A DNA stretch of 64,000 bases, taken from NCBI GenBank assembly GCA_965153285.1, contig OZ229129.1, one strand, 5' to 3'. Shown here in pieces: positions 60,001-63,000 of the stretch. Position numbers: made by a program. Position 1 is the stretch's first letter. Every line of letters begins with the position of its first letter. Source of the stretch: Podarcis tiliguerta (Eukaryota).

Positions 60001-63000
60001 CTCCCCTGAACTGGCTGTAAGTCAGGAGGAAGAGAGGTGGAGGCTGACTGAGTTTGTTGGGGGCAGTGCCTCATTTGCCCAAATGGACCAAGCCTCCACT
60101 GCGTATGGAGAAGATCTTTAAGTTTAAAAGTCCTTTATGATTGCAGTGCAGAAGGATGTCAAAGACACCAGTCCGTCATCAGTGATGCTGGGGGCTGATG
60201 GAGAAGTTTCACAGGCATGAACAGAAACATTGGAGAAGCAGGTGAAACTGGGAAGAAGTAGTGATGGACAGTTCTCTATTTACCTCCTCATCCAAGAGGT
60301 TTTGGTGACAAGATGAATCACCGGTGCATCTCATACTGCTTGCTGTCAGGTCCAACTCCAATGCAGTTAAGAATAGAGCTGGCTAAAATTTGGAAAACCA
60401 AACTTTCCATCCAAATTGGGTTGGGGAGCATGGTGTAAGAATCAGTGGGAGCAACCCCACTCTTTGCTAATTCCAGAGGTTGTGGGAAATGTTTTTTTGG
60501 GGGGTGCTTACTGGAGCTCTTCAAAGCTCCATCAAGGTAGCAGCTGCTATCTTAATGCCCCAGAATGCCCTATTTTGACAAGGAACTTGCAGGGCTGAGG
60601 GGCAGATGATGGCCACCACAGGAAAAAAAATGGCAGCCCCTGGGGGGTATCACCTGAGCCACTCTGGCCTATCAGCACAGCCTGCAGTTCTCTTCTTTGG
60701 TGCTGTTATGTATTCAAACTGGCTGCAGTTCTCACTCTGGGCCACCAGTATGCAAATGAAGGATTGAGAGTTGCTTTCACCTATTGGGTAGTTAATTGGA
60801 AATCGTTACTGTTACAAGTTATTGAGCATTATATAAGGCAGGCAGCTTCGCTGTTGTTCAGAGACTTAGAGCAGTGCTAACTTCTCTAATAAAGGGCTGC
60901 GTCTGTCACCCATCTTTCCAACTATACAACAGGCACAAATGTTAAATTCCAAGTTTACAAGTGGAGCACTGCCTCACCAACCTCAGTCTGTGCTTAGTCA
61001 AACCCCATCTGCCTGTTTCTTCCTTAAAACCACCACAAGGGAGAGAGGAGGGGAGGCTGCTCCAGCCAGAGTCCACCAATTCCACCGGTGGGGTGCAGAA
61101 TAAGGTCTGTTTCTAACCAGCAGTTTGCAGGTGACTGCGCCCTGCCAGACGAGGAGAGCCAGCCGCTCCTGCACGGCGCCGGGATCTGTAAGTGGTTCAA
61201 CGTGCGGATTGGGTTCGGCTTCCTCTCCATGACCACCAAGGAAGGCTGCCTCAGGTTAACGTGCCTTGTGTCAATGAGGCCAAATGCATTGGTTTATATA
61301 GTTGCCAGAAGAAAAGGGATGCTTCCCCAGAGTGTGTGCAAAGATTAAAATGCTACCCCTTCTAGTTTTGCATCCGTCTTAAAAATAAAATAAAATACAG
61401 TAGCATTGTTTCCCCCCTATTCCCTTCTTAGATATTTAGTATGTGTAAATATCTTATGTAAATCTTTCTGGCTTATTTCCAGTTTTCCTTTTTAATGATT
61501 GTTCACAAACTTGAGGGTGTGGGAAATAGCCAAGGCATGCGGTGGGCATTTGCACCAGAGGGGCATAGAGTGGGGCACCCTCTTTGCACCTTGCAACTTT
61601 GCCACATGAGAGCTGGTTAACGGGTGGGGGGAATTTCCCCTATCTTCCTACAACCAATGAGAGAATTGGACTTCTGAAGTAACAGTGATTTATCTGCAAG
61701 CCAAGAGGAACAATGTCCTTGGGGGGGTGGGGTTGACTGCAGCTTCTTCCACCCACTAGTTTGCAGAATTGTTTTGGAAATTCTTTAGGTCAGTCTCCCA
61801 GGCCTTTTTTTTTAAATGACAATATGGTTTCTAAAACTCTTCAGTTTGGTCTTGCAAATAAATCCCTGCTTGGAATAGGCAATATCATTACCATTTTAGA
61901 CAGTGGTAGACACTATGCATTAGGAGCAAGCAGTGTGCATTGCAGTCAGACTGGTGCCAAGTCTGCACTCAGGGTCACTGTGGAATAGGGAGCACTGAAT
62001 GCATTGGGGGTGGGAAGAGTGGGGGGATGATGGCGACTTCTTGTGTGGCTACATTATTGTGTACTAGGAGACAAAATGAATGTAACTCCCATGTTTACTG
62101 CTAGCGACCAAAGCTTGTTTTGTGTCAAACTCTTTGACTTTTTATGAAGCAGGTGGGTGGGTGGGTGGGAGAGGGTGGGGATGAGAGGGTGACTGTGTGG
62201 GGTTCTTTTTAGAGGGGGGAGGGTCCTGAGCTGCAGGACTCTGTTCAAGCAAGCAGCTATCCTGCTGATTATGTCTGGTGGCGATGTCAATAATCCCCAC
62301 GACTGCATTCCCCTCCCCTTCACTATTTTCATTTTTGTACCAGTTTTGGAAAACGATGGAAACAAATAAAGAATATGGATCATTTTTTTTAAAAAAAAAA
62401 ACACCCCAAGGAGGAGCCCTTTACTTTCAGTTTCCTCCTTCTCCTTAGTCTCTGTTTTGCCCCTGTAGAACACAGCAGGGGACAAAACTAGAATGAACCC
62501 GTTTCACCTGCCATTGGTCCACCTACCATTGGGGCTCCCTGTCTTCTGGCCCTTCAAGTCCCAATACGCACCAGTCAGCAGCCACGGTCTCACACATTAC
62601 TTGGGATTCCACTCCGAGGAGCTGCTTGCAGATTTCAGCCTTGGCACCTGCACAGCATGCTGGTGCAAGACCTCATTCCCTGATAACTCCCTTACAGATG
62701 GCAGAAGGTCATTCAGCAAATGCAAACCCCCAACATTCCTGCCTCAAAGGTAAAGGGACCCCTGACCATTAGGTCCAGTTGTGACCGACTCTGGGGTTGC
62801 GGTGCTCATCTCGCTTTATTGGCTGAGGGAGCCAGCGTACAATCATGTGGCCAGCATGACTAAGCTGCTTCTGGCGAACCAGAGCAGTGCACGGAAATGC
62901 CGTTTACCTTCCCGCCAGAGCGGTACCTATTTATCTACTTGCATTTTTGACGTGCTTTTGAACTGCTAGGTGGGCAGGAACAGGGACTGAGCAACGGGAG

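What the first reader, a model, noticed from the sequence alone, without database searches (positions are those of the whole stretch)
60969..61253. Spliced, 5'-only LIN28A cDNA fragment inserted antisense in the melatonin receptor intron
Seen: LIN28A exon 1 (SVSNQQFAG) is joined without an intron to the start of the cold-shock domain. The fragment includes RNP1 (KWFNVRIGFGF) and stops before RNP2 and the zinc knuckles. There is no poly(A), the start ATG has become ATA, and 9 CpGs survive in 61131-61220 in otherwise CpG-poor DNA. An 8-bp repeat CTGCCTCA (60969-60976, 61246-61253) may be a TSD, which would put ~120 nt of 5'UTR inside the insert. Known: LINE-made retrocopies usually keep the 3' end and poly(A); LIN28A is a germline/pluripotency mRNA. 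Inference: this arose by an atypical route (internal priming, template switch or cDNA capture at a break), is probably young, and records LIN28A expression in the lizard germ line.
Basis: partly seen in the sequence, partly recalled or inferred. Interest (0 to 1): 0.7.

Follow-up and report, generated by a model that had tools for sequence, protein, structure and literature searches.

The report
Dead LIN28A retrocopy fragment in lizard intron
A short, broken, intron-free copy of the first 49 codons of the stem-cell gene LIN28A sits backwards inside an intron of a wall-lizard melatonin-related receptor gene; it is an ordinary kind of genomic fossil whose only oddity is that it keeps the front end of the message instead of the tail.

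Summary
On the + strand, 61100-61246 encodes IRSVSNQQFAGDCALPDEESQPLLHGAGICKWFNVRIGFGFLSMTTKEG. It matches squamate LIN28A (tblastn E 8.6e-22). It crosses the exon 1/exon 2 junction (61130|61131) without an intron. It stops 9 residues before VDVFVHQ, has ATA for ATG, has no adjacent poly(A), and has 9 CpGs in 116 nt.

No other LIN28A piece lies in the window. The host is the melatonin-related receptor (GPR50/Mel1c type), 99% identical to the Podarcis protein. Its exon 2 is on the - strand at 50292-49430 and its exon 1 lies outside the window.

So this is a dead, partial processed pseudogene.
- **TSD:** the 8-bp repeat arises by chance in 3-6% of trials. A 12/15 repeat (61051-61065 vs 61240-61254) competes with it, so the 5' edge is open.
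- **Youth:** not shown. There are at least 3 disabling substitutions and a 12-residue gap. SINE-like copies 13-30% diverged from a reference copy are also CpG-rich.
- **Route:** truncation at origin (internal or microhomology priming) is favoured, but later deletion is not excluded.

The lacertid LIN28A mRNA and orthologous empty sites could not be examined here.

The parts
61100..61130 (+). LIN28A exon-1-derived coding piece (ATA AGG TCT ... GCA G). The start codon is lost (ATA) and Gly2 is changed to Arg.
   Evidence: IRSVSNQQFA(G) against MGSVSNQQFA(G) in all 7 canonical comparators.
61131..61246 (+). LIN28A exon-2-derived piece. It covers the variable N-terminal region (12 residues shorter than in Elgaria, Rhineura and Erythrolamprus) and the first third of the cold-shock domain with RNP1. 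Met is changed to Ile at 61208-61210. It ends at ..MTTKEG and holds 9 CpGs.
   Evidence: (E 8.6e-22). Pfam CSD is matched only at profile positions 3-20 of 66, 16.5 bits against a cut-off of 27.
61130..61131 (+). Intron-less exon 1/exon 2 junction (..GCAG|GTGAC..), phase 1.
   Evidence: One search gives the sequence. The parental boundary is inferred from alternative-first-exon isoforms that converge at this residue.
60977..61099 (+). Stretch that would be LIN28A 5'UTR if the 8-bp repeat is the TSD. Only 61066-61099 would be 5'UTR if the 15-nt repeat is. Its origin was not shown.
   Evidence: No match elsewhere in the window. It has 1 CpG in 123 nt at GC 0.56. The parental mRNA was not available.
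60969..60976 (.).
   Evidence: Chance rate 0.028-0.058.
61246..61253 (.). 3' copy of CTGCCTCA. It starts at the last base of the Gly49 codon, that is, at the end of LIN28A homology.
61051..61065 (.). 5' copy of the rival imperfect repeat GGGAGGCTGCTCCAG.
   Evidence: family D1. 12 of 15 match; chance rate about 0.02.
61240..61254 (.). 3' copy of the rival repeat GGAAGGCTGCCTCAG. Its first 7 nt are the LIN28A codons for (K)EG, as expected for microhomology at a priming site.
60702..60931 (+). Neighbour, not part of the insert. A roughly 230-bp LTR-like dispersed repeat with TGT..ACA ends and TATA-like and AATAAA motifs, flanked here by GGTGC/GGCAC.
   Evidence: Other copies lie at 58628-58812 (+) and at 55439-55309 plus 54956-54871 (-). 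The last is flanked by GGAAA/GGAAA.
61381..61398 (+). A-rich tract AAAAATAAAATAAAATA, 135 nt downstream of the homology end. It would be a tail remnant only under the composite-insert rival.
   Evidence: No direct repeat of 7 nt or more follows it.
49430..50292 (-). Host gene: exon 2 of the melatonin-related receptor (GPR50/Mel1c type). The acceptor is ..CCCAG|GC and the stop codon is at 49427-49429.
   Evidence: (99% identity to Podarcis muralis and P. raffonei proteins, E 6e-188).

Best explanation
This is a dead, partial processed pseudogene of LIN28A.

A spliced LIN28A mRNA, present in germ-line or early-embryo cells of a lacertid ancestor, was reverse-transcribed by a retroelement enzyme acting in trans. 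The cDNA was fixed in intron 1 of the melatonin-related receptor gene, antisense to it.

Only the 5' end of the message is present: some 5'UTR, the 31 coding nt of exon 1 and 116 nt of exon 2.

The most likely reason is that reverse transcription did not start on the poly(A) tail. Instead it started inside exon 2, where a few bases of the mRNA (..GGAAGGC..) paired with a single-stranded end of the broken target. It then ran to the cap. This is the internal-priming or microhomology-primed type of insertion, which leaves a short direct repeat of the target at both ends.

The copy has no start codon, less than a third of a cold-shock domain and no zinc knuckles. It cannot make LIN28A and probably has no function.

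Shown: identity, splicing, truncation point, disablements and host gene. Inferred: the enzyme, the priming step, the 5' boundary and the age.
For: - Identity and uniqueness: tblastn E 8.6e-22 at 61106-61246; every other hit of the five queries had E above 0.6. The best database relatives are squamate LIN28A.
- Splicing: exon 1 residues are contiguous with exon 2 residues. Alternative-first-exon isoforms in four reptiles place the parental intron exactly there.
- Decay: ATA start, G2R, and Ile for the Met that all 11 comparators share in RNP1. Pfam CSD scores below its cut-off.
- Sharp 3' edge: 33 of 34 residues are identical to Rhineura up to KEG, then nothing.
- Original junction: two direct repeats overlap that exact edge, an exact 8-mer (chance 0.03-0.06) and a 12/15 15-mer (chance 0.02). 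Both together occur in 0.5-0.9% of trials. A later deletion would not leave such repeats.
- No poly(A) at the edge.
- No TT/AAAA-type site at either candidate (read).
- Published pattern: elements flanked by TSDs but lacking the tail, not always at an endonuclease site, are described as internal priming (PMC5402677, passages).
- A reverse-transcriptase-type remnant lies in the same window (a lead only).
Against: - The repeat statistics are post hoc and modest. The two candidates contradict each other on the 5' edge.
- The 15-mer has 3 mismatches.
- The stretch taken as 5'UTR could not be compared with any LIN28A mRNA. It is CpG-poor (o/e 0.09 for 60960-61099), unlike the exon 2 part.
- No lacertid LIN28A N-terminus was in hand; the Podarcis lilfordi model P0080 starts in exon 3. 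So the intron position, the 12-residue gap and two of the substitutions are judged against other squamates.
- The window ends 2.7 kb downstream, so a displaced remainder cannot be excluded.
- No lizard genome, reads or orthologous locus could be searched with these tools.
Confidence: 0.6

Rival explanations
1. An ordinary, longer retrocopy that began at the poly(A) tail was inserted here. It later lost its 3' part, tail and 3' TSD through a deletion or rearrangement. The repeats at the edge are then chance.
For: This is the commonest origin of retrocopies (general knowledge; reviews listed were seen as listings only). The copy is not pristine: it has at least 3 disabling changes and a 36-nt gap, so small deletions may already have occurred in it. 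Each repeat alone is only p 0.02-0.06.
Against: Two independent direct repeats sit exactly on the homology edge, jointly in 0.5-0.9% of trials. No LIN28A remnant lies within 2.7 kb downstream or anywhere else in the window. No recognisable repeat abuts 61246.
Confidence: 0.2
2. Composite insert. The LIN28A 5' piece is joined to the extreme 3' end of the same or another mRNA (61254-61380), with a decayed A-tail at 61381-61398. It would have arisen by an intramolecular or intermolecular template jump or by an internal deletion.
For: An A-rich (AAAAT)n-like tract with AATAAA lies 135 nt downstream. Template switching gives 5' fragments fused to tailed 3' fragments. This model is recalled, not from a call; the chimeric retrocopies of PMC5131818 are a related case.
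Against: No direct repeat of 7 nt or more follows the tract. The only shared 7-mer, CTTAAAA, precedes it. The tract is short (17 nt). The segment matches nothing in the window, and no 3'UTR was available to compare.
Confidence: 0.1
3. LTR-retrotransposon-mediated retroposition. The mRNA piece was captured by template switches inside a virus-like particle, and the LTR-like repeat just upstream is the remains of the carrier.
For: An LTR-like repeat in the same orientation ends 37 nt before the 8-mer. Such captures are typically partial and 3'-truncated, lack poly(A) and L1-type TSDs, and show microsimilarity at junctions (PMC5131818, passages).
Against: The repeat looks like an independent solo insertion with its own short flanking repeat: GGTGC/GGCAC here and GGAAA/GGAAA in the 55-kb copy. 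Its sequence stops at 60931 in all three copies. No second copy or other element sequence lies downstream to 64000. None of the 30 flanking ORFs scanned matched any Pfam family, so none showed a gag or pol domain.
Confidence: 0.05
4. Not a real germ-line insertion: an assembly chimera (cDNA or read contamination), or a DNA-level duplicate of an intron-less parental arrangement.
For: Nothing positive. It cannot be excluded because no reads or second assembly were available.
Against: The piece carries pseudogene-type decay (ATA start, G2R, RNP1 Met to Ile, gap). Contaminating cDNA would not show this. The exon boundary at this spot is seen in the gene models of four reptiles (Erythrolamprus, Rhineura, Anolis, Mauremys).
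Confidence: 0.03

Closest known systems
Classical LINE-made processed pseudogenes, such as the 'LIN28A-like' copies named in primate and rodent annotations (names seen; those loci were not examined)
   Same: Intron-less copy of a spliced mRNA at an unlinked site, non-coding and decaying.
   Different: It keeps the 5' end and lacks the 3' end and poly(A). Classical copies are 5'-truncated with an intact tail and an A-rich TSD start (PMC1920257, introduction passages).
Internal-priming insertions of L1 and Alu (Srikanta et al. 2009, as described in PMC5402677)
   Same: Flanking direct repeats without a 3' tail. No endonuclease consensus is needed, and insertion can occur at staggered breaks.
   Different: These were described for primate repeats, not for a cellular mRNA in a lizard. 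The priming site here would lie deep inside the coding region, and the TSD is not proven.
Non-classical, endonuclease-independent L1 insertions (NCLI; PMC1920257)
   Same: 3' truncation, no poly(A), no endonuclease site, and microhomology at the ends.
   Different: NCLI loci were defined by the absence of any TSD and usually delete target DNA. Here one or two TSD-like repeats are present.
LTR-mediated partial retrocopies (PMC5131818)
   Same: Partial, 3'-truncated and tail-less mRNA pieces. An LTR-like repeat is next door.
   Different: LTR sequence on both sides is required. Here it is on one side only, and that repeat appears to be an independent solo insertion.

Membership tests
Processed pseudogene / retrocopy | Parental intron missing at an exon-exon junction | tested here: met
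   The junction is at 61130|61131. The parental boundary is inferred from isoforms of Erythrolamprus, Rhineura, Anolis and Mauremys. The lacertid parent itself was not seen.
Processed pseudogene / retrocopy | Poly(A) tail at the 3' end of the copy | tested here: not met
   No A-run lies at 61246. The nearest A-rich tract is at 61381-61398.
Processed pseudogene / retrocopy | Target-site duplication flanking the insert | tested here: inconclusive
   Exact 8-mer (chance 0.03-0.06) and a rival 12/15 15-mer (chance 0.02).
Processed pseudogene / retrocopy | Lies away from the parental gene | tested here: met
   Every other hit of the five LIN28A queries in the 64 kb had E above 0.6. The surrounding gene is the melatonin-related receptor.
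Internal-priming insertion | 3' end of the template missing while flanking direct repeats are present | tested here: inconclusive
   The truncation is shown. The repeats are present but not proven to be a TSD.
Internal-priming insertion | Microhomology between the priming site in the RNA and the target | tested here: inconclusive
   The first 7 nt of the 3' copy of the 15-mer are LIN28A codons. The pre-insertion target is unknown.
Endonuclease-independent (NCLI-type) insertion | Absence of any TSD | tested here: inconclusive
   TSD-like repeats exist. If they are real, this criterion fails.
Endonuclease-independent (NCLI-type) insertion | 3' truncation, no poly(A), no endonuclease consensus | tested here: met
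   No TT/AAAA lies at 60969 or 61051 (read).
Endonuclease-independent (NCLI-type) insertion | Target-site deletion relative to the empty site | not testable with these tools
   No orthologous lizard locus could be fetched.
LTR-mediated retroposition | Retrocopy flanked on both sides by sequence of one LTR retrotransposon | tested here: not met
   The LTR-like repeat is upstream only. It ends at 60931 with its own flanking repeat. Nothing related lies downstream.
LTR-mediated retroposition | Microsimilarity at mRNA/element switch points | not testable with these tools
   This needs the element's consensus and the parental mRNA.
Functional LIN28A (cold-shock domain plus two CCHC knuckles) | Start codon, whole cold-shock domain, zinc knuckles | tested here: not met
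   ATA start. Pfam CSD scores 16.5 bits against a cut-off of 27, covering profile positions 3-20 of 66. There are no knuckles.

The most novel reading that the evidence does not exclude
The piece is a footprint of non-classical retroposition in a reptile germ line. A capped LIN28A mRNA would have been captured at a staggered chromosomal break and copied from a microhomology-primed site inside the coding region up to the cap. This would have happened without poly(A) and without an endonuclease site, possibly by a reverse transcriptase other than L1. That would extend internal-priming or break-repair retroposition, so far documented for primate L1 and Alu, to cellular mRNAs in squamates.
Probability: 0.35. 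Interest if true: 0.4.

Novelty: new member of a known kind. Interest (0 to 1): 0.22.

Why it matters
In itself, little: it is one more decayed gene fragment, with no sign of function.

It has modest value in two ways:
- It is a clean presence/absence marker for lacertid phylogeny, because it is unique sequence inside a conserved gene's intron.
- It is a candidate example of tail-less, 5'-retaining retroposition in a genome rich in LINE and SINE copies. If the empty site confirms one of the two repeats as a TSD, the priming site and the amount of 5'UTR copied are fixed to the base.

It also implies LIN28A mRNA in heritable-lineage cells of a lizard. That is expected rather than surprising.

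Tried and rejected
- **Rest of LIN28A nearby** (genuine exons or a frameshifted continuation): tblastn with five squamate LIN28A proteins found only 61106-61246.
- **Lacertid parental N-terminus:** two protein searches and two cluster look-ups gave only Podarcis lilfordi P0080, which starts in exon 3. The parent could not be compared.
- **Flanks as repeats:** self-BLAST at two sensitivities found nothing for 60960-61105 or 61247-61700 except one weak 27-nt hit.
- **Carrier element:** Pfam on 30 ORFs in 58000-62770 and 36 elsewhere gave no hits. Rfam on 58000-64000 gave nothing near the piece.
- **Twin priming** (inverted 5' segment beside a tailed 3' segment): no poly(T) or poly(A) and no LIN28A coding match on the - strand nearby. 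A 3'UTR-only partner could not be tested.
- **Bov-B type insertion signature** (T-run, then TA at the TSD start; PMC13295347 passages) and **L1-type TT/AAAA:** neither is present at either candidate TSD (read).
- **CpG richness as proof of youth:** rejected after the SINE-like control.
- **Literature:** one search on LIN28A with retrocopy terms listed no paper with LIN28A among its top 15 of 483. This is no proof that none exists.
- **Exon models:** Receptor exon 2 was searched alone.
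Full report
**What is there**

The + strand from 61100 reads ATA AGG TCT GTT TCT AAC CAG CAG TTT GCA G|GT GAC TGC GCC .... It translates to IRSVSNQQFAGDCALPDEESQPLLHGAGICKWFNVRIGFGFLSMTTKEG, followed by unrelated CLRLT.

- A search of the 54-residue translation for longer proteins returned 54 of 54 candidates at E 0.001 or better. 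Every hit that carries a name is a LIN28A, a LIN28A-like or an unnamed hypothetical model. Squamates are on top: Erythrolamprus, Rhineura, Ophiophagus, Lerista.
- tblastn of five squamate LIN28A proteins against the window found one significant place, 61106-61246 (Elgaria P0074, E 8.6e-22). All other hits had E above 0.6.
- Pfam sees only the first 18 positions of the cold-shock domain, below its cut-off (16.5 against 27 bits).
- So the piece is LIN28A, it stands alone in the window, and it cannot encode a working protein.

**Spliced or not**

The parental gene of this lizard was not available. The one lacertid model found (Podarcis lilfordi, P0080) begins in exon 3.

The intron position was therefore tested through annotated isoforms with alternative first exons: Erythrolamprus X1/X2/X3, Rhineura X1, Anolis P0086 against P0031, and Mauremys P0072.

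- All differ up to, and join at, the residue before ..GC(A/Q)K... This places a phase-1 exon boundary exactly where the window reads ..GCAG|GT...
- Read-through models (Ophiophagus, Lerista, Gekko kuhli, Sphaerodactylus P0088) diverge after VDVFVHQ, marking the exon 2/3 boundary.
- The window's copy crosses the first boundary without an intron. It ends 9 residues before VDVFVHQ, inside exon 2.
- This is the signature of an RNA-derived copy, truncated at its 3' side within exon 2.

**Decay and age**

Compared with 11 LIN28A sequences:

- The copy has Ile (ATA) for Met1 and Arg for Gly2.
- It has Ile (ATT, 61208-61210) for the RNP1 Met that all 11 share.
- Asp for Gly12 and Leu for Arg may or may not be parental.
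- It lacks 12 residues (KAGEEEPTGDSP in Elgaria and Rhineura) in a region that varies in length among squamates. It is shorter there than any of the 11 comparators.

The nine CpGs at 61138-61216 are real. Observed/expected is 0.76 against 0.25 for the window, and only 0.9% of 116-bp windows reach 9.

A SINE-like family serves as an internal control.

- Seven other matches, 70-87% identical to the copy at 52850-53200, keep 5-21 CpGs each.
- The five matches of about 260-330 bp keep 12-21.
- CpG richness therefore survives considerable divergence in this genome and does not prove youth.

With at least 3 visible copy-side changes in 147 nt, and the squamate rate of 0.0013 per site per million years quoted in PMC13295347 (table legend), the age is of the order of ten to a few tens of millions of years, with very wide error. 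I regard it as undated.

**Edges**

The 3' edge is sharp: 33 of 34 residues are identical to Rhineura up to KEG, then nothing.

Its 3' copy starts on the last base of the homology.
- With the 5' copy allowed anywhere between the upstream repeat and the ATA, and the 3' copy within about 15 nt of the edge, chance gives such an 8-mer in 2.8-5.8% of trials.
- The 901 nt around the site hold four exact 8-mer direct repeats.
- A second candidate, GGGAGGCTGCTCCAG (61051-61065) against GGAAGGCTGCCTCAG (61240-61254), matches 12 of 15. It is rarer by chance, about 2%.
- The 3' copy of that second candidate begins with the LIN28A codons for (K)EG. Microhomology-primed reverse transcription would produce this.
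- Both repeats together occur in 0.5-0.9% of trials. These tests were designed after seeing the repeats.
- The two candidates give different 5' edges, with 123 or 34 nt of 5'UTR.
- The longer stretch, 60977-61099, has 1 CpG. The wider 60960-61099 has observed/expected 0.09, unlike the exon 2 part. This mildly favours the shorter reading, but without the mRNA this is open.
- Neither candidate starts at a TT/AAAA-type site or at the T-run/TA pattern reported for Bov-B in Podarcis (PMC13295347 passages).

**Surroundings**

- *Upstream repeat.* Directly upstream (60702-60931) lies a roughly 230-bp LTR-like repeat with TGT..ACA ends and TATA-like and AATAAA motifs. Two more copies lie at 58.6 kb (+) and 55.4-54.9 kb (-); the latter is split by a SINE-like insertion. 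All three copies lose similarity at the same ends. The 55-kb copy is flanked by GGAAA/GGAAA and this one by GGTGC/GGCAC. I therefore read it as an independent solo insertion, not a carrier of the LIN28A piece.
- *Downstream.* Nothing related lies downstream to 64000. The flanking ORFs have no Pfam domain.
- *A-rich tract.* A 17-nt A-rich tract with AATAAA sits 135 nt downstream (61381-61398), and no direct repeat follows it.

**Host gene**

- ORF 49427-50443 on the - strand contains exon 2 (50292-49430) of the melatonin-related receptor (GPR50/Mel1c type). It is 99% identical to the proteins of Podarcis muralis and P. raffonei.
- Exon 2 was searched on its own.
- Exon 1 (residues 1-54 of P0090) is not in the window. 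It must therefore lie beyond 64000, and the LIN28A piece, 10.8 kb from the acceptor, lies in intron 1 and is antisense. This is inferred, not seen.
- The window is lizard, not human.

**Mechanism**

My preferred reading (about 0.6 for the whole statement, about 0.9 for 'retro-derived dead LIN28A fragment') is a copy truncated at origin. Reverse transcription was primed inside exon 2 on a target end with a few complementary bases and ran to the cap.

- This matches the published description of internal priming: TSDs but no tail, not necessarily at an endonuclease site (PMC5402677 passages).
- It partly matches endonuclease-independent insertion: 3' truncation, no tail, no consensus site, but by definition no TSD (PMC1920257 passages).

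Rivals:
- later truncation of a normal copy (0.2);
- a composite with a tailed 3' piece (0.1);
- LTR-mediated capture as in PMC5131818 (0.05);
- artefact (0.03).

**Verdict**

The finding is a new member of a known kind, a truncated processed pseudogene, of low to modest interest.

They are the species' LIN28A mRNA and the orthologous empty site.

Noticed in passing
window 60702-60931 (+), 58628-58812 and onward (+), 55439-55309 plus 54956-54871 (-): Three copies, 74-82% alike, of a roughly 230-bp LTR-like repeat within 6 kb. It has TGT..ACA ends, an ATGCAAAT octamer, TATA-like and AATAAA motifs. The 55-kb copy has a 5-bp flanking repeat (GGAAA) and is split by a SINE-like insertion.
   Followed up: partly
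window 19331-19877, 23556-23875, 45785-46115, 52850-53200, 54964-55282, 56950-57259, 62753-63010: A SINE-like family of about 320 bp, on both strands, 70-87% identical to the 52.9-kb copy. It is still CpG-rich: the five longer matches keep 12-21 CpGs each. Identity with the Sauria SINE of the literature was not tested.
   Followed up: partly
window 63237-63336: A palindromic, MITE-like hairpin. It matches the Rfam miRNA families mir-5408 and mir-3160 on both strands, below their gathering scores (54.8 against 90 bits).
   Followed up: no
window 39903-40436 (-), also 4003-4206 (-): ORFs with a C-terminal cysteine/histidine motif. The first is nearest to Atlas clusters that carry zf-RVT, the zinc-binding region of reverse transcriptases (score 0.96, family on 11-60% of members). 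No Pfam hit. Probably LINE remnants.
   Followed up: partly
window 61141|61142: A 12-residue (36-nt) in-frame gap in the LIN28A piece relative to Elgaria, Rhineura and Erythrolamprus. It is either a deletion in the copy or a shorter lacertid parent.
   Followed up: partly
window 61254-61261 and 61615-61622: Another exact 8-mer direct repeat (GGTTAACG). It starts right after the CTGCCTCA copy and is probably chance.
   Followed up: no
public protein models P0080, P0004, P0006, P0007, P0088: Several squamate LIN28A gene models are incomplete or read into intron 2. Podarcis lilfordi starts at exon 3. Ophiophagus, Lerista, Gekko kuhli and Sphaerodactylus run on after VDVFVHQ. Annotation of this gene's GC-rich 5' exons is therefore unreliable.
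   Followed up: no
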